Source of the DNA: an uncultured archaeon
Lineage (GTDB): Archaea; Iainarchaeota; Iainarchaeia; Iainarchaeales; 0-14-0-20-30-16
Direction: 5' to 3'
Assembly (NCBI GenBank): GCA_964565125.1
Contig: CAZMCX010000030.1
Location: forward strand, 2,172-8,574
Length of the DNA: 6,403 bases
Under the pieces are notes generated by a model, which made no database searches, was not told the DNA's origin, and saw nothing but the letters and a program-made list of their open reading frames with translations. Position numbers and translations under genes: made by a program. Below, piece after piece: positions 2,511 through 6,088 of this stretch. Numbering within the stretch: position 1 is the stretch's first letter; every line of letters starts with the position of its first letter.

Positions 2511-3665
2511 ATGAAGAGTCTATTAAACAACGCGATAATAAAGGCAAAAGAAGAAGCCAAGAAGCCGGTTTCAGATAAGAGAGCGAATTCTGCTGTTGAT
2601 GAAGATATTATTAGGGTTTTAGAAGAGTCAAAGGCAAAGATTAAAGTTTTCGGTGCAGGTGGTGCAGGCGGAAACGCAGTAAATAGAATGAAGGAAAGCG
2701 AAATAGATAGTGTTGAACTTATTGCAGTTAATACTGATGCCCAAGCATTAATTAGTAATATTGCAGATAAGAAAATATTAGTTGGAAGAAAATTAACAAA
2801 AGGGTTGGGTGCAGGCTCTGAGCCAAATGTTGGTGAAGCCGCAGCAAAAGAATCAAAAACAGAATTAGAAAAAGAGATTAAAGGTTCTGATTTGGTTTTC
2901 ATTACTTGTGGGCTTGGCGGTGGAACAGGAACTGGTGTTGCGCCGGTAATTGCAGAAATTGCAAAAGAGAATAGTGCGTTGACTATTGCAGTAGTAACTT
3001 TGCCATTTACAGTAGAAGGAAGAGTAAGAACTGCTAATGCTTTAGAAGGATTAAAAAAATTAAGAAGTGTTGTTGACACAGTAATTGTGATCCCTAATGA
3101 TAAGATACTTGAAATTGCGCCGGATTTACCATTAAACACAGCATTTAGGGTTGCTGATGAAGTTTTAACAAATGCAGTTAAAGGAATTGCAGAAATGATC
3201 ACAAAGCCGGGATTGATTAACTTGGACTTTGCAGATTTAAGAACAATAATGAGTCGGGGTGGGGCAGCAATGATTGGTTTAGGGGAAAGTACTCCTGAAG
3301 CAAATTCAACTGATCGGGCGCTATTGGCTGCAGAGAATGCATTAACATCTCCTTTACTGGATATTGATATTTCAAAAGCAAAAAGGGCTTTAGTAAATGT
3401 TGTTGGTGGAACAGATATGAGTATTAAAGAAGCCCAAACTATTGTTGAAGCAGTAGCAAGTAAGATTGATCCCGAAGCACATATAATTTGGGGTGCTATG
3501 ATTGACCAGGAGATGGCAAAAACACAGATTAGGGCAATGATAGTAATTGTTGGTGGTTATTTCCCTTATATTGATGGACCTGTGACAGGAAAGTCTGATA
3601 AAACAAAGTTTAGAGATTCTGATGACGAAGAATTAGATGATTTTGATATAGGCTATACAGGTTAA
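2511..3665 (+). CDS. ftsZ: Cell division GTPase FtsZ (tubulin homologue), probably FtsZ1-type judged from the ftsZ-secE-nusG linkage
   Basis: 384 aa. Contains the motifs GAGGAGGNAVNRM, NTDAQAL and the tubulin signature GLGGGTGTGVAPVIAEIAKE, plus VVTLPFTVEGRVR and the C-terminal peptide EELDDFDIGYTG. The ftsZ-secE-nusG order is a known conserved archaeal arrangement. Confidence 0.97.
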   Translation: MKSLLNNAIIKAKEEAKKPVSDKRANSAVDEDIIRVLEESKAKIKVFGAGGAGGNAVNRMKESEIDSVELIAVNTDAQALISNIADKKILVGRKLTKGLGAGSEPNVGEAAAKESKTELEKEIKGSDLVFITCGLGGGTGTGVAPVIAEIAKENSALTIAVVTLPFTVEGRVRTANALEGLKKLRSVVDTVIVIPNDKILEIAPDLPLNTAFRVADEVLTNAVKGIAEMITKPGLINLDFADLRTIMSRGGAAMIGLGESTPEANSTDRALLAAENALTSPLLDIDISKAKRALVNVVGGTDMSIKEAQTIVEAVASKIDPEAHIIWGAMIDQEMAKTQIRAMIVIVGGYFPYIDGPVTGKSDKTKFRDSDDEELDDFDIGYTG

Positions 3666-3678
3666 AATAAGCAGAAAT

Positions 3679-3712
3679 TAAGTGAGTTGTATTTAAAAAG
3701 ACAATCCACTTA
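3679..3712. promoter_or_regulatory. Imperfect inverted repeat enclosing a TATA-like TATTTAAAAA box; candidate secE promoter, operator and/or ftsZ 3-prime hairpin
   Basis: TAAGTG-a-GTTGT (3679..3690) pairs with ACAAT-c-CACTTA (3701..3712), giving 11 pairs including one G-T, plus a 1x1 mismatch. The loop carries TATTTAAAAA (3690..3699), which predicts a TSS near 3720-3725, just upstream of the hairpin element. Confidence 0.4.
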
Positions 3713-3738
3713 TTAGGTATTAAAAAGTGATGTTATGG

Positions 3739-3783
3739 CAAGTTTGAGTTTATGCTCAAAATCGCAAAAACATCAAACAGGAC
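3739..3783 (+). promoter_or_regulatory. Conserved structured element, copy A (secE leader)
   Basis: CAA-GTTTGA(3742-3747)-GTTT(3748-3751)-A-TGC(3753-3755)-loop tcaaaatc-GCA(3764-3766)-A-AAAC(3768-3771)-A-TCAAAC(3773-3778)-AGGAC. About 38 of 48 aligned positions are identical to copy B at 5219..5266, with the same secondary-structure geometry. Confidence 0.6.
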
Positions 3784-3807
3784 ATCAAAATATGGAATGT
3801 GATTTTA

Positions 3808-3969
3808 ATGGCAAATTTAATTGAAAATTCAAAAAGAGTGTTTACTGTGGCTAAAAAACCAGATAAACAAGAGTTTTGGGGTATTGCTAAGTCAACAGGC
3901 TTAGGGATATTATTTATTGGGCTTGTTGGATTTATAATTTATTTGATATTTCATTTCTTCTTGTTATAG
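3808..3969 (+). CDS. secE: Protein translocase subunit SecE / Sec61-gamma (below the ORF-track size cutoff)
   Basis: My own translation gives MANLIENSKRVFTVAKKPDKQEFWGIAKSTGLGILFIGLVGFIIYLIFHFFLL*, 53 aa. The RV..V.KKP.K.EF..IAK.TGLGI..G..GFII pattern and single C-terminal TM helix are typical of archaeal SecE. SD GTGAT-TTTA-ATG precedes it. It sits between ftsZ and spt5 as in other archaea. Confidence 0.85.
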   Translation: MANLIENSKRVFTVAKKPDKQEFWGIAKSTGLGILFIGLVGFIIYLIFHFFLL

Positions 3970-3981
3970 ATGTGATTATTT

Positions 3982-4419
3982 ATGATGTTTACTTTGAGAA
4001 CAATGTATGGAAGAGAAGAGTTAGTTGCATGTATCCTTAAGAAAAAAGTTGAAGATGAAGGGCTGGCAATTTATTCTGTAATTATGATGCCAAATGTTAA
4101 AAACTACCTTTTGGTTGAATCTGATAATGAAACAACTCTGAAAAGAGCAATCATAGATATTCCTTATGTAAGAAAAACAAATATTACTGTCGGAAATGTG
4201 AGCCAGGAAGAGTTGAAATCTTTGCTAAAGGTTGAGCCTATGATGCAGAAACTTGATGTTGGAATAGTAGTAGAAATAAAGAATGGATACTTAAAGGGAA
4301 GTAGGGCAAGAGTAGTAAGAGTAAACCCAACAAAGGAAGAAGTAACTGTTGAGGTACTTGATGCTGCGGTTAAAATCCCTATAACTATTAAAGCTGAGAG
4401 TGTAAAAATAATAGAGTAA
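3982..4419 (+). CDS. spt5: Transcription elongation factor Spt5 (archaeal NusG), NGN plus KOW domains
   Basis: 145 aa. The N-terminus FTLRTMYGREELVA is the NGN opening, comparable to archaeal IFAVRTT.GQE. The C-terminal KOW is GIVVEIKNGYLKGSRARVVRVNPTKEEVTVEV. SD GTGAT (3972..3976) lies 5 nt upstream of the ATG. Confidence 0.93.
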   Translation: MMFTLRTMYGREELVACILKKKVEDEGLAIYSVIMMPNVKNYLLVESDNETTLKRAIIDIPYVRKTNITVGNVSQEELKSLLKVEPMMQKLDVGIVVEIKNGYLKGSRARVVRVNPTKEEVTVEVLDAAVKIPITIKAESVKIIE

Positions 4420-4453
4420 ATTTGCTTTAATTTCTTCATAAATAAGGCATATC

Positions 4454-4479
4454 TTTATAAACATATATTTGCCTATAAA
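4454..4479 (+). promoter_or_regulatory. Two candidate TATA boxes (TTTATAAA 4454..4461 and CTATAAAT 4472..4479) upstream of rpl1
   Basis: These A/T-rich octamers lie in the 112-nt spt5-rpl1 spacer. They follow a T-rich tract after the spt5 stop (TTTGCTTTAATTTCTT) that could act as an archaeal oligo-T terminator. Confidence 0.35.
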
Positions 4480-4489
4480 TTACCAATAA

Positions 4490-4520
4490 GCCTAGTTTTA
4501 GGCCGTACTGCATATTGCAG
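4490..4520 (+). promoter_or_regulatory. Twin short hairpins in the rpl1 leader; the second abuts the SD
   Basis: GCCTA-gttt-TAGGC (4490..4503) and CTGCA-tat-TGCAG (4508..4520). The SD GGAGG is at 4520..4524, so G4520 is shared by the stem and the SD. The TTG start is at 4532. Confidence 0.45.
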
Positions 4521-4531
4521 GAGGTTTTAAC

Positions 4532-5191
4532 TTGAATAAAAATTTAGTAGAATTCTTGAAAAAAGTGGTAGTAGAGTCTAAACCAAGAAAATTCCCACAA
4601 TCAATAGACGTTAGTATCAACTTTAAAAATATAAACTTTAAGCAACCTCAGAATAGAGTAGAAGTAAATGTTGAAATACCAAAGCCTTTTGGAAAAAAGA
4701 TGAGGGTTTTACTATTTGCTTCAGATCAAGGTGTAAAGAGCGAGTTAAAAGATGTTGCTGAGAAGATAATTGGAATTGAAGAGATACCTAATCTGGATAA
4801 GAAAGCAATAAAGAAAATTGCTGTTGGTTATGATTTATTCTTTGCGGAGAATAAAGCTATGCAAACTGTTGGTAAGTATTTAGGACAGACTTTAGCTCCA
4901 AGAGGAAAAATGCCGAAGTTGGCTTTAGCAAATAAAAACGCAATGTTGGCCCTGATAAACAAGGAGCAAAACTCTATAAAAATAACAAACAAAAAAGGTA
5001 AGTTTTTGCCAACAGTACATTTTAAGATTGGATACGAAAAAATGTCTGCAGAAGATTTGGCAATGAACTTGGGGGCAGCAATGGAGAAATTGATTGCGGC
5101 TTTGCCATCTAAAGAGCAGAATATTAAATCAATTTATGTAAAAACTACAATGGGAACAGCATCACAAGCAGATATTAAGTTTTTCTTGTAA
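4532..5191 (+). CDS. rpl1: 50S ribosomal protein L1 (uL1), TTG start
   Basis: 219 aa. PRKFPQSIDVSINFKNI, VEIPKPFGKKMRVLLFA, YDLFFAENKAMQTVGKYLGQTLAPRGKMPK match the conserved uL1 blocks (F.ES.D..I.L and LG..LGPRGKMP). A strong SD GGAGG lies 7 nt upstream of TTG. Confidence 0.93.
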   Translation: MNKNLVEFLKKVVVESKPRKFPQSIDVSINFKNINFKQPQNRVEVNVEIPKPFGKKMRVLLFASDQGVKSELKDVAEKIIGIEEIPNLDKKAIKKIAVGYDLFFAENKAMQTVGKYLGQTLAPRGKMPKLALANKNAMLALINKEQNSIKITNKKGKFLPTVHFKIGYEKMSAEDLAMNLGAAMEKLIAALPSKEQNIKSIYVKTTMGTASQADIKFFL

Positions 5192-5204
5192 GGTTTAACT
5201 GAGT

Positions 5205-5218
5205 GTGATATTTATGAT
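5205..5218 (+). repeat. Left copy of the perfect 14-nt direct repeat GTGATATTTATGAT (decoy SD plus ATG)
   Basis: Identical to 5276..5289, which is the genuine rpl10 SD, spacer, ATG and next 2 nt. The two copies are 71 nt apart and bracket hairpin copy B. Confidence 0.85.
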
Positions 5219-5266
5219 CAAGTTTGAATTTATGCTCACAAGGTTCGCAGAAATGTCAAACAGGAC
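5219..5266 (+). promoter_or_regulatory. Conserved structured element, copy B (rpl1-rpl10 intercistronic spacer)
   Basis: CAA-GTTTGA(5222-5227)-ATTT(5228-5231)-A-TGC(5233-5235)-loop tcacaaggttc-GCA(5247-5249)-G-AAAT(5251-5254)-G-TCAAAC(5256-5261)-AGGAC. This is the same architecture as copy A. Confidence 0.6.
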
Positions 5267-5275
5267 CATAAAAAG

Positions 5276-5289
5276 GTGATATTTATGAT
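5276..5289 (+). repeat. Right copy of the 14-nt direct repeat; this is the real rpl10 ribosome-binding site and start
   Basis: GGTGAT (5275..5280), spacer ATTT, then ATG at 5285. Confidence 0.85.
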
Positions 5290-6088
5290 ACAAAGAAAAG
5301 GCCATAATAGGCAGTGGAAAGAAAAGCAGTTGGAAAAAGTAACATCAAAGTTTAATGATTATCCTACTATTGCAATTGCTACTGTTGAAGCTTTACCTGC
5401 AGCAATTGAGAGAAAATACAGGGATATTTTAAAGAAAAATGATTCTTGTATATTTGCAATAAAGAATAAGCCGGTAATGAAATTCTTTGAAGAATCAAAG
5501 TTGTCTTTAGGCGATAAAATAAAGGGGACTTCGGTTGTAATTTTATCAAAGAAGAGCCCATTTGAATTATTTGCATTAATAAAGAAAAATGCTGGTTTAA
5601 CTGCTGCAAAAGTAGGATCAGTAGTTGATATTTCTATAGAAGTTCCTGAAGGAGACACAGGGATTGCTGCAGGTCCAGCATTATCTGACTTTAAGGCATT
5701 AAAATTAGATACACAAATAAGAAATGGAAAAATTTTTATTGCTAAGCCAAAGGTTGTTATTGAGCCTGGCCAAAAAGTTGATGAAAAAATAGCTACAATC
5801 TTAAATAAGCTAAAAATAAAACCAATGAAAGTTTATATGAAGATTTTAGGGGTTTACAATAAAACAGAATCATTATTATACTTACCAGAAGCATTGGACG
5901 TTGATTATGACGTTTATAGAGGAAAGTTTGCTAAGGCTTATAACGAGGCAACTTCGGTGGCAATTGAAGCCCGTTATATAGCTAAAGAAATTGTTGATAA
6001 ATTTATTGCTAAGGCATATAGAGAAGCTAAAGCAGTTTCTTTAAAAACTACTAAAGAAGATGGTAAGGCAGAAGAAGTAAAAGGATAG
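5285..6088 (+). CDS. rpl10: 50S ribosomal stalk protein P0 (uL10), unusually short and without the conserved C-terminal tail
   Basis: RQWKEKQLEKVTSKFNDYPTIAIATVEALPAAIERKYRDIL matches the archaeal P0 N-terminus (.EWK..EV.EL......YP...I.....IPA..L..IR). The gene lies between rpl1 and rpl12. I place the start at ATG 5285 (SD GGTGAT 4 nt upstream) rather than the track's GTG at 5276, which lies inside the SD. This gives 267 aa ending ...KTTKEDGKAEEVKG*. Confidence 0.9.
   Translation: MIQRKGHNRQWKEKQLEKVTSKFNDYPTIAIATVEALPAAIERKYRDILKKNDSCIFAIKNKPVMKFFEESKLSLGDKIKGTSVVILSKKSPFELFALIKKNAGLTAAKVGSVVDISIEVPEGDTGIAAGPALSDFKALKLDTQIRNGKIFIAKPKVVIEPGQKVDEKIATILNKLKIKPMKVYMKILGVYNKTESLLYLPEALDVDYDVYRGKFAKAYNEATSVAIEARYIAKEIVDKFIAKAYREAKAVSLKTTKEDGKAEEVKG

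What the first reader, a model, noticed from the sequence alone, without database searches (positions are those of the whole stretch)
5205..5289. Hairpin copy B is bracketed by a perfect 14-nt duplication of the rpl10 SD plus start codon, creating a decoy initiation site and a 21-codon uORF
GTGATATTTATGAT occurs at 5205..5218 and again at 5276..5289, which is the real rpl10 RBS and start. The two copies are 71 nt apart with the hairpin between them. The upstream copy opens a uORF at 5214..5279 (MIKFEFMLTRFAEMSNRTIKR*). This uORF reads through the whole hairpin, and its TGA stop lies inside the GGTGAT SD of rpl10. That geometry is typical of translational coupling or of ribosome-mediated unmasking of a downstream RBS. 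The same layout also looks like a target-site duplication left by insertion of a palindromic element of about 57 nt exactly at a translation-initiation region. Both readings are unusual. The duplicated bases after ATG are specific to this locus (AT here, GCAA at secE). This argues that the duplicated segment derives from the target gene and not from the element.
Basis: seen in the sequence. Interest (0 to 1): 0.7.

Follow-up and report, generated by a model that had tools for sequence, protein, structure and literature searches.

The report
Mobile hairpin inserted at start codon
A 57-base hairpin-forming mobile element has landed two bases after the start codon of a ribosomal-protein gene in a small DPANN archaeon, leaving a copy of the ribosome-binding site and start codon on each side; it belongs to an apparently undescribed family that inserts almost only at gene starts.

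Summary
GTGATATTTATGAT occurs at 5205-5218 and 5276-5289, 71 nt apart, around a 57-nt hairpin. The upstream ATG opens a 21-codon uORF whose TGA lies inside the real rpl10 Shine-Dalgarno (SD) sequence.

Two close relatives, Ca. Iainarchaeum STB_43 and contig L010, have the rpl1-rpl10 spacer with a single copy of this start region and no hairpin. The STB_43 flanks match the window's, so the window carries a 57-nt insert plus a 14-nt target-site duplication.

A core-only search found about 20 further copies in front of unrelated genes, including secE, nrd, PCNA, MCM, rpoA, S4, S4e and SBDS. All but one sit 1-2 nt after an ATG, in sense orientation. Each is followed by a second SD+ATG with the same post-ATG bases.

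The core of copy B is 46/46 identical to the PCNA copy but only 78% identical to the copy at the rpl10 site of another lineage.

The hairpin is kept by compensatory changes. The uORF stays open through it and ends within -22 to +14 nt of the real start. The peptide is not conserved.

Best reading: a selfish, start-site-specific hairpin element that rebuilds the ribosome-binding site it splits. A regulatory role is possible but untested. The integration enzyme is unknown.

The parts
5205..5218 (+). Upstream copy of the duplicated start region: SD GTGAT (5205-5209), spacer ATTT, decoy ATG (5214-5216) and AT. It is orthologous to the single native start region of the empty sites.
   Evidence: The empty-site alignments with L010 and STB_43 are.
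5214..5279 (+). 21-codon uORF (MIKFEFMLTRFAEMSNRTIKR*). It reads through the whole hairpin and stops at the TGA inside the real SD.
   Evidence: The peptide is not conserved between copies because the frame differs with the 1- or 2-nt insertion offset.
5219..5275 (+). The inserted element, 57 nt (copy B). It consists of the core hairpin CAAG...CAGG (5219-5264), the anti-start arm ACCAT (5265-5269) and an A-rich tail AAAAAG (5270-5275).
   Evidence: The core is 46/46 identical to the copy in front of a PCNA gene in L022/L044.
5222..5261 (+). Conserved stem-loop: GUUUGA/UCAAAC, a bulged purine, RUUU/AAAY, a 1x1 purine mismatch, UGC/GCA and a variable loop.
   Evidence: In 22 copies, 14 pairs are 100% paired. 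Two pairs show compensatory G-C/A-U changes in 5 sequences each, and 0 of 500 shuffles reach the observed covariation score.
5276..5289 (+). Downstream copy of the duplicated start region. This is the working rpl10 SD and start codon (ATG 5285-5287).
5285..6088 (+). rpl10 (P0) gene, 267 aa, intact downstream of the insertion.
   Evidence: Pfam Ribosomal_L10 and RL10P_insert.
4532..5191 (+). rpl1 gene. Its stop codon lies 22 nt before the decoy ATG, so ribosomes ending rpl1 arrive at the decoy start region.
3727..3815 (+). Copy A of the same family in front of secE. It comprises decoy GTGATGTTATGG (3727-3738), core 3739-3781, arm plus tail 3782-3798, and the real start region GTGATTTTAATGGCAA (3799-3814; secE ATG at 3808).
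   Evidence: The secE sites are empty in L010, L012, L014 and STB_43.

Best explanation
Copy B is one insertion of a small (about 57-62 nt), non-coding, hairpin-forming mobile element family found in Diapherotrites/Iainarchaeia (DPANN) genomes.

Shown:
- The family lands 1-2 nt after a start codon, always in the sense orientation.
- The target from the SD to ATG+1-2 (about 13-15 nt in clean copies) ends up on both sides of the element.

Inferred:
- A trans-acting integrase or transposase makes staggered cuts about 14 bp apart, and fill-in repair produces the duplication.
- Because the whole ribosome-binding site is duplicated, the gene keeps an intact SD+ATG immediately downstream. This is why insertions into essential genes survive.
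- The upstream copy becomes a decoy. In copy B it is predicted to be folded into an extended stem, because the element's 3' arm (..CCAUAAA) is complementary to the UUUAUGAU of the duplicated start region.
- A ribosome that does start there, or that arrives from rpl1, meets no stop codon in the hairpin. It terminates at the UGA inside the real SD, 5 nt before the rpl10 AUG, where it can re-initiate.

The element is therefore best seen as a selfish insertion that is neutral by design. The decoy start and uORF are by-products that may modulate translation.
For: Empty versus filled sites:
- STB_43 (L10 in the same 90% cluster as the window's) has GAGTGTGATACTTATGAT|ACAAAG with a 21-nt rpl1-rpl10 spacer.
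- L010 (L1 89% identical) has a 29-nt spacer.
- The window has the same flanks plus the 57-nt element plus a second GTGATATTTATGAT.
- The secE and nrd sites are also empty in these relatives, but filled in the window's genome.

Multiplicity and target:
- Searches with core-only patterns, with no ATG or SD in the pattern, found 2 copies in STB_43 and about 20 distinct copies in metagenome contigs.
- All except L038 lie directly after ATG+1-2 nt (TTG in L041). All are followed by SD+ATG and a long ORF.
- The target genes are unrelated: RpoA', MCM, PCNA, S4e, S4, SBDS, topoisomerase and membrane proteins.

Duplication: 39/43 post-ATG bases are identical between decoy and real start (p<5e-5). Perfect repeats of 13, 14, 14, 14 and 15 nt occur in clean copies.

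Recent movement: the B core is 100% identical to the PCNA copy and 96% to the S4 copy. It is only 78% identical to the copy at the rpl10 site of L011.

Tandem arrays hold different subfamilies at one start site: L001 nrd, L014 spt5 and rpl10, L031 and L037.

Hairpin: it is maintained by compensatory changes.

uORF: it is open through the hairpin in 25 of 27 copies and stops between -22 and +14 of the real ATG.

Decoy masking: in B the decoy AUG has unpaired probability 0.01, against 0.39 for the real AUG.
Against: - No transposase, integrase or longer autonomous partner was found in the ~250 kb of related DNA held, so enzymatic mobility is inferred.
- The duplication is imperfect in about half of the copies, mostly in the SD-ATG spacer.
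- Downstream start regions are enriched for GTGATTTTATG: 7/16 against 2/26 native starts (p=0.009). This suggests that part of the downstream start region sometimes travels with the element, which a simple fixed target-site duplication does not predict.
- Decoy SD and ATG are retained even where spacers have diverged. This hints at selection on the decoy, meaning some function.
- Family-wide, the lower accessibility of the decoy AUG is only a trend: 0.25 against 0.42 (p=0.07).
- No expression or translation data exist.
Confidence: 0.8

Rival explanations
1. Host regulatory device. The decoy SD+AUG, relay uORF and hairpin form a translational coupling or switch module. The 3' arm (CAUAAA) can pair either with the decoy start or with the real start. 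Translation of the uORF, or termination of rpl1, then sets how much P0 is made, and the module has been recruited at many housekeeping genes.
For: - The uORF is open through the hairpin in 25/27 copies and ends within about 20 nt of the real AUG. It ends in the SD's UGA in about 10 copies.
- The decoy SD and ATG are retained while spacers diverge.
- The 3' arm is complementary to the post-ATG bases more often than chance: 21/43 against 12.3 (p=0.0012).
- The decoy AUG tends to be less accessible than the real one.
Against: - The closest relatives express the same essential genes (rpl10, secE, nrd) without the module.
- Presence is patchy and lineage-specific.
- The same start site is hit by different subfamilies, and sites accumulate 2-4 modules.
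- uORF stop positions show no preferred class: about 10 in the SD, 11 in CATAAAA and 4 inside the gene.
- The peptide is not conserved.
- These features fit a tolerated parasite better than a dedicated regulator. The two readings are not mutually exclusive.
Confidence: 0.2
2. The element spreads without a dedicated transposase, by copy-choice or template switching or ectopic recombination that uses the shared SD-spacer-ATG consensus as microhomology. A nascent strand ending in ..TTATGxy re-anneals on the decoy start region of a donor copy. It copies the hairpin and tail and a variable part of the donor's downstream start region, then returns to its own template.
For: - Repeat length is variable: 13-17 nt, and up to 22-31 nt including the tail.
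- Downstream start regions are often of a common GTGATTTTATG type unlike the native site. At nrd the native-like GGTGTTCACTATGAT lies upstream and GGTGTGATTTTATGAT downstream.
- PeSL cassettes of T4-type phages are a precedent for conserved regulatory motifs acting as recombination substrates (PMC2839356).
Against: - Clean young copies have locus-specific repeats of a narrow 13-15 nt, including unusual SDs: B, L011, L039, L040, L046, and L022 (GAGTGA).
- Orientation and the +1/+2 offset are strict in all 27 copies, including subfamilies whose third reading frame is open.
- Both features are more typical of an enzyme.
Confidence: 0.25
3. Local tandem duplication of the rpl10 start region, with a hairpin that happens to lie between the copies. 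There would be no mobility.
For: A 14-nt repeat at this spacing arises in about 2% of shuffled windows.
Against: The same core occurs at more than 20 unrelated genes in several genomes, each with its own locus-specific repeat. The core is 46/46 identical at rpl10 and PCNA.
Confidence: 0.02
4. RNA-level removal or bypass. Either the 71-nt unit is an intron (archaeal bulge-helix-bulge type), or ribosomes hop over it from the decoy AUG to the real AUG, as in T4 gene 60.
For: Identical sequences at both borders would make removal seamless. Matched take-off and landing codons with a hairpin after take-off recall gene 60 and its mobile relatives (10.1101/2022.08.31.505936).
Against: - The predicted structure has a 2x2 internal loop and a 1-nt bulge, not two 3-nt bulges 4 bp apart.
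- The real start has its own SD, so no bypass is needed.
- There is no stop codon after the 'take-off' AUG and there can be no nascent-peptide signal at initiation.
- The gap is read as an open uORF.
Confidence: 0.02

Closest known systems
Prokaryotic MITEs (miniature inverted-repeat transposable elements)
   Same: It is small, non-coding and multi-copy, and forms a hairpin. It shows presence/absence polymorphism between close relatives and is flanked by a duplication of the target.
   Different: MITEs are defined by terminal inverted repeats and 2-10 bp duplications, and they lie mostly in intergenic DNA (PMC11602168). Here the inverted repeat is internal, followed by an 11-20 nt asymmetric tail. 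The duplication is 13-15 nt or longer. The orientation is fixed and the target is the ribosome-binding site plus start codon. A 2024 review of MITE functions does not mention the terms ribosome binding, start codon or Shine-Dalgarno (PMC10969869).
Rickettsia palindromic elements (RPEs)
   Same: These are palindromic repeats that invade essential genes in reduced genomes and survive because the insertion is compatible with gene expression (PMC10969869).
   Different: RPEs are about 150 bp, insert in-frame inside ORFs and are translated as part of the protein. This element sits before the ORF and preserves expression by duplicating the start region.
Casposon / Cas1-type integration
   Same: The duplication size matches. 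The A. boonei casposase gives 13-16 bp, mostly 14-15 bp, at a specific site defined by sequence next to the duplicated segment (PMC5137440). Repeat-insert-repeat arrays arise at one site.
   Different: No casposon-like terminal inverted repeats are present and no casposase gene was seen. The inserts are homologous hairpins, not large transposons or diverse spacers. This is a lead from duplication length only.
IS200/IS605 and group II intron target recognition by base pairing (own knowledge)
   Same: A sequence inside the element (..y'x'CAUAAA) is complementary to the flank just 5' of the insertion point (UUUAUGxy), like a guide or EBS-IBS pairing. Insertion is strand-specific.
   Different: Those systems make no target-site duplication. 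This element has one hairpin and no ribozyme or TnpA-type paired ends.
T4 gene 60 bypass element and its mobile relatives
   Same: It is a short mobile insert with a hairpin, bounded by matched codons, that leaves the host gene functional through a translational trick (10.1101/2022.08.31.505936).
   Different: Those inserts lie inside the ORF and need ribosome hopping. Here a complete second initiation site makes hopping unnecessary.
uORF termination-reinitiation / translational coupling (own knowledge)
   Same: The uORF stop overlaps the SD, 5 nt before the main AUG. The upstream gene's stop lies 22 nt before the uORF start.
   Different: The uORF is created by an insertion, its peptide is not conserved, and close relatives lack it.
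PeSL mobile regulatory cassettes of T4-type phages
   Same: These are dispersed cassettes of an expression signal plus a stem-loop that move or mediate rearrangement through their conserved sequence (PMC2839356).
   Different: PeSLs are promoter-terminator units that shuffle genes by recombination. They do not duplicate a start codon.

Membership tests
MITE | Small non-coding element in multiple dispersed copies | tested here: met
   More than 25 copies of 57-62 nt were found in several genomes and contigs.
MITE | Terminal inverted repeats of at least 10-15 bp at both ends (PMC11602168) | tested here: not met
   The inverted repeat starts 3 nt inside the left end. On the right it is followed by an 11-20 nt arm plus tail with no left-hand counterpart inside the element.
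MITE | Target-site duplication of 2-10 bp | tested here: not met
   A duplication is present, but it is 13-15 nt in clean copies, 17 nt at L014 spt5, and longer where tails coincide.
MITE | Empty sites in relatives (insertion polymorphism) | tested here: met
   The rpl10, secE and nrd sites are empty in L010 and STB_43.
MITE | Cognate autonomous element or transposase with the same ends | tested here: inconclusive
   No unpaired half-sites bounding a longer element were found in ~228 kb of loci. Whole genomes could not be scanned.
Casposon-type (Cas1 family) integration | 14-15 bp target-site duplication | tested here: met
   Repeats of 13, 14, 14, 14 and 15 nt occur in clean copies, compared with 13-16 bp in vitro (PMC5137440).
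Casposon-type (Cas1 family) integration | Casposon terminal inverted repeats and a casposase gene in the genome | not tested
No casposase was seen in the loci held.
IS200/IS605-derived palindromic elements | Insertion 3' of a fixed tetra- or pentanucleotide without target duplication; subterminal hairpins at both ends | tested here: not met
   Locus-specific duplications are present, and there is a single hairpin.
REP/RAYT elements | Extragenic palindromes with a conserved 5' GTAG and no target duplication | tested here: not met
   There is no GTAG, and a duplication is present.
Integron attC site | R''/R' boxes RYYYAAC / GTTRRRY, cassette context, no target duplication | tested here: not met
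   The arms are RTCAAAC / GTTTGAR, which deviate at two consensus positions. The elements lie in conserved housekeeping operons with duplications.
Archaeal bulge-helix-bulge intron | Two 3-nt bulges on opposite strands separated by a 4-bp helix at the exon-intron borders | tested here: not met
   The predicted and covariation-supported structure has a 2x2 internal loop, a 6-bp helix and a 1-nt bulge.
Programmed translational bypass (gene 60 type) | Insert inside an ORF; matched take-off and landing codons; stop codon after take-off; nascent-peptide signal | tested here: not met
   The insert precedes the ORF, the real start has its own SD, no stop follows the decoy ATG, and the gap is an open uORF.
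uORF-mediated translational coupling | uORF stop within a few nt of the main start | tested here: met
   The TGA at 5277-5279 lies 5 nt before the ATG at 5285. Across the family the stops lie between -22 and +14.
uORF-mediated translational coupling | uORF actually translated, and main-ORF output dependent on it | not testable with these tools
   This needs ribosome profiling, toeprinting or reporters.
Any Rfam RNA family | Covariance-model match | tested here: not met
   No match was found at 3727-3815 or 5205-5289, even at E<=10. No tRNA or tmRNA was found.

The most novel reading that the evidence does not exclude
The family may be a new class of 'start-site-homing' element. Its CAU-containing 3' arm would act as a guide that base-pairs with the UUUAUGxy of a translation-initiation region. 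A Cas1/casposase-like integrase making a ~14-bp stagger would then insert the hairpin. The result would be repeat-hairpin-repeat arrays at gene starts that are formally analogous to miniature CRISPR arrays. The decoy start plus relay uORF would be an evolved device that keeps the host gene translated.
Probability: 0.12. Interest if true: 0.9.

Novelty: new variant of a known kind. Interest (0 to 1): 0.7.

Why it matters
If confirmed genome-wide, this would be a mobile element whose target is the ribosome-binding site and start codon itself, and which survives in essential genes of a tiny, gene-dense genome by rebuilding that site. Four consequences follow.
- It would give a natural set of decoy start sites, relay uORFs and hairpins in front of ribosomal, replication and transcription genes. 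With matched empty-site alleles, these could be used to study initiation and re-initiation in archaea.
- It would explain start-site mis-annotation and inflated spacers in DPANN genome bins.
- The ~14-bp duplication and strict orientation point to an unidentified integrase.
- The element is a handy strain-level marker.

Tried and rejected
- **Rfam, tRNA and tmRNA.** An Rfam scan of the whole window at E<=10 gave nothing at either copy. The tRNA/tmRNA scan found none.
- **Conserved uORF peptide.** Rejected. Copies use two different frames (MxKFEF.. or MxSLNLCS..) depending on a 1- or 2-nt offset, and a third frame after loop indels.
- **Selection for an open uORF as the reason for the +1/+2 offset.** Not supported. 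Subfamilies whose third frame is open show the same offset.
- **Element always carries its own SD, with only ATG+xy duplicated.** Rejected as a general rule, because unusual locus-specific SDs are duplicated: GAGTGA in L022, GGGGGAT in L041, GAGGTAAT in L046 and GATAYTT at rpl10. The enrichment of GTGATTTTATG downstream of elements remains unexplained.
- **K-turn / L7Ae site, attC site, BHB intron, IS200/IS605 ends.** The motifs were inspected by eye on the alignment and do not fit.
- **Viral contig scans.** The main core gave 0 hits. The second subfamily core gave 2 hits that are coding sequence in phage contigs and are unrelated.
- **Search for half-sites bounding a longer autonomous element** in 228 kb of loci: none.
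- **Chance hits of the metagenome pattern.** L025, L027, L029, L030/32/33, L034, L036 and the Rhodomicrobium locus L008 lack the family architecture and were discarded.
- **The 518-aa 'L1-L10 fusion' protein (P0040).** It is a gene call that reads TGA as Trp across the spacer, not a real fusion.
- **Literature.** Nine literature searches, several aimed at RBS-/start-codon-targeting elements, and a term check of a 2024 MITE review found no description of such an element.

Full report
**Context.** The window is a conserved archaeal gene cluster. On the minus strand it holds four ORFs, one of them PTH2. On the plus strand it holds ftsZ 2511-3665, secE 3808-3969, spt5 3982-4419, rpl1 4532-5191, rpl10/P0 5285-6088 and P1 6113-6403. 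The identical FtsZ is recorded in NCBI as a protein of a Candidatus Diapherotrites archaeon (DPANN). The P0 protein clusters at 90% identity with that of Candidatus Iainarchaeum sp. STB_43.

**The observation.** GTGATATTTATGAT occurs exactly twice, at 5205-5218 and 5276-5289. The two copies are 71 nt apart with 57 nt between them. The upstream ATG at 5214 opens MIKFEFMLTRFAEMSNRTIKR*. Its TGA at 5277-5279 lies inside the GGTGAT in front of the rpl10 ATG at 5285. That ATG is the true start, because the N-terminus MI(Q/S/K)(R/G)KGHN is conserved from exactly this codon in four relatives. A repeat of this length and spacing arises in 5 of 300 shuffles, so the repeat alone is only suggestive.

A second, 79%-identical unit lies in front of secE at 3727-3815. 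It has its own decoy (GTGATGTTATGG) and its own real start (GTGATTTTAATGGCAA). Neither unit matches any Rfam family.

**Empty sites.** Orthologous loci were retrieved through rpl1 homologues.
- Contig L010 (L1 89% identical) has a 29-nt rpl1-rpl10 spacer and a 72-nt ftsZ-secE spacer, each with one SD+ATG and no hairpin.
- The syntenic 20.6-kb region of STB_43 (L050) has a 21-nt rpl1-rpl10 spacer reading GAGTGTGATACTTATGAT|ACAAAGAAAAGG.
- The window reads GAGTGTGATATTTATGAT[57 nt]GTGATATTTATGAT|ACAAAGAAAAGG. This is the same left and right flanks, a 57-nt insert, and a 14-nt duplication of the target.

The secE site, and the nrd site just beyond the window end, are likewise empty in these relatives but occupied in the window's genome. 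The nrd start there carries two tandem elements.

**Other copies.** A search of one genome per species with a pattern made only of core bases found two further copies, both in STB_43. One precedes a membrane protein gene and the other a 62-aa gene. A core-only scan of JGI metagenomes returned 33 loci. About 20 of them are distinct true copies and the rest are chance hits lacking the architecture.

Although the patterns contained no ATG or SD, every true copy but one (L038, next to a tRNA gene) begins 1-2 nt after an ATG (TTG in L041). All are in the sense orientation. Each is followed 15-30 nt later by an SD, an ATG and a long ORF. The genes are unrelated: RNA polymerase A', MCM, PCNA, S4e, S4, SBDS, a topoisomerase, a methyltransferase and membrane proteins.

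The one or two bases after the decoy ATG equal those after the real ATG at 39 of 43 positions, against a permutation mean of 16.5 (p<5e-5). Clean copies have perfect, locus-specific repeats of 13-15 nt (L039 13; B, L040 and L037 14; L011 15). Longer repeats (22-31 nt) occur where the element tail is also shared, mostly in tandem arrays.

**Evidence for movement.** The core of copy B is 46/46 identical to the copy in front of PCNA and 96% identical to one in front of S4. It is only 78% identical to the copy at the orthologous rpl10 site of the more distant lineage L011. L011 has its own perfect repeat, GTGATACTTATGATC. A third lineage (L014) has two elements of other subfamilies at the rpl10 start and two at the spt5 start. 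L037 has about 230 nt of nested hairpin modules before S6e. The same start regions are therefore hit repeatedly and independently.

**Anatomy.**
- The element starts with CAAG and contains a stem-loop: GUUUGA/UCAAAC, a bulged purine, RUUU/AAAY, a purine-purine mismatch, UGC/GCA and a variable loop. The core ends in CAGG.
- In 22 copies all 14 pairs are standard in every sequence. Two pairs switch G-C to A-U, or C-G to U-A, in five sequences each, and no shuffle reaches the observed covariation. Other subfamilies keep the architecture with different stem sequences.
- After CAGG come 0-3 variable bases, then CAT, then an A-rich tail (consensus CATAAAATATAAG).
- CAUAAA is the complement of the UUUAUG typical of these start regions. 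The variable bases are complementary to the post-ATG bases more often than chance (21/43 against 12.3, p=0.0012). The decoy start codon is thus drawn into an extended stem.
- For copy B the decoy AUG has an unpaired probability of 0.01, against 0.39 for the real AUG. Over 21 copies the means are 0.25 and 0.42 (p=0.07), which is only a trend.

**The uORF.** It remains open through the hairpin in 25 of 27 copies. It ends in the SD's UGA (about 10 copies), in the TAA of CATAAAA (about 11) or a few codons into the gene (4). The stop is always between -22 and +14 of the real ATG. Peptides differ with the frame, so no peptide is conserved. The 1-2 nt offset is also seen in subfamilies whose third frame is open, so it looks mechanistic, not selected.

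**Interpretation.** The data fit a selfish, non-autonomous hairpin element that inserts specifically into translation-initiation regions and duplicates the whole SD-to-ATG+2 segment. This leaves an intact ribosome-binding site for the gene, which explains survival in essential genes of a very compact genome.

The following steps are inferred, not shown: staggered cleavage of about 14 bp by an unknown integrase; target recognition helped by pairing of the anti-start arm; masking of the decoy; and relay of ribosomes by the uORF to the real start.

Three observations are not fully explained by a simple fixed duplication:
- The repeat length varies.
- GTGATTTTATG is enriched downstream of elements (7/16 against 2/26 native starts, p=0.009).
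- The decoy SD and ATG are retained where spacers have diverged.

These keep two alternatives alive: a recombination or template-switch mode of spread, and some regulatory use.

**Comparison with known systems.**
- The element behaves like a MITE (small, multi-copy, insertion polymorphism). It fails two MITE criteria, terminal inverted repeats and a 2-10 bp duplication (PMC11602168).
- Its duplication length matches Cas1-family casposases (13-16 bp, mostly 14-15; PMC5137440). This is a lead only.
- It resembles Rickettsia palindromic elements in being compatible with gene function (PMC10969869), and the mobile gene-60 bypass inserts in using a translational trick (10.1101/2022.08.31.505936). 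The mechanism differs in both cases.
- Nine literature searches, several aimed at such elements, and a term check of a 2024 MITE review found no element that targets the ribosome-binding site and start codon.

**Verdict.** The regulatory reading is plausible as a side effect but untested. I rate the finding a new variant of a known kind, with interest 0.7.

Noticed in passing
L001 6512-6655 (equivalent to about 310-450 nt beyond the window's 3' end): Two tandem elements of different subfamilies precede the ribonucleotide reductase gene of the window's genome. The upstream start region is native-like (GGTGTTCACTATGAT). Both downstream ones are GGTGTGATTTTATGAT within a 31-nt perfect repeat. The site is empty in L010, L011 and STB_43.
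   Followed up: partly
L001 6653-10201, compared with L011 4384-6579 and L050 12095-14293: The ribonucleotide reductase of the window's genome is 1182 aa and has Intein_splicing and LAGLIDADG hits. The orthologues in two relatives are 731-732 aa without an intein. This is a second mobile-element polymorphism in the same neighbourhood.
   Followed up: no
L037 689-916: The spacer between an aIF5B-like gene and the S6e gene is about 230 nt and is filled with three to four nested or tandem hairpin modules of different subfamilies. Each ends in ..CATAAAATAT..GTGATTTTATGAT. This suggests repeated hits on one start region.
   Followed up: partly
L038 11357-11404 (minus strand): This is one family member with no decoy ATG and no duplicated start region. 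It lies in an intergenic region between a tRNA gene and a divergently oriented membrane-protein gene, and is the only copy not at a gene start.
   Followed up: partly
window 5285-5311, and L010 3204-3230: The native 5' end of rpl10 (ATGATATCAAGAAAAGGCCATAAT in the empty-site relative) resembles the outer parts of the element (ATGAT-CAAG...AGG-CCATAA). Its own start codon can pair with the CAU of codon 7. This could reflect a target preference or the origin of the element.
   Followed up: no
window 3682-3709: An inverted repeat (GTGAGTTGT ... ACAATCCAC) with an ATTTAAAAAG loop lies just after ftsZ. It is conserved, with changes on both arms, in L010 and STB_43 (GTGGGTTG/CAACCCAC and GGGTTGT/ACAACCC). 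It may be a terminator, or a structure that contains a promoter.
   Followed up: no
window 4420-4531: rpl11 is not present between spt5 and rpl1, where many archaea have it (own knowledge). The 112-nt spacer is AT-rich with TATA-like runs. The same gap occurs in the relatives.
   Followed up: no
protein P0040 (ENA), covering window 4532-6088: A 518-aa 'L1-L10 fusion' in the protein collection reads W at the rpl1 stop position and at the TGA inside the hairpin (CAA GTT TGA). It is a gene call made with a TGA=Trp code, not a real fusion. rpl1 and rpl10 happen to be in the same frame across the insert.
   Followed up: yes
L043 104-148 compared with L046 779-823: At one orthologous site in two strains, the element and the downstream start region are identical. 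The flanks differ by 5-10%, and only L046 has a perfect 22-nt repeat. Just upstream, L046 also has TATTTATGA-AG-AAAAAAGAG, which looks like the remnant of a deleted earlier element.
   Followed up: partly
all element-bearing loci: The exact motif GTGATTTTATG is enriched at the real start downstream of elements: 7/16 against 2/26 other gene starts (p=0.009). Neither a simple target-site duplication nor drift explains this.
   Followed up: partly
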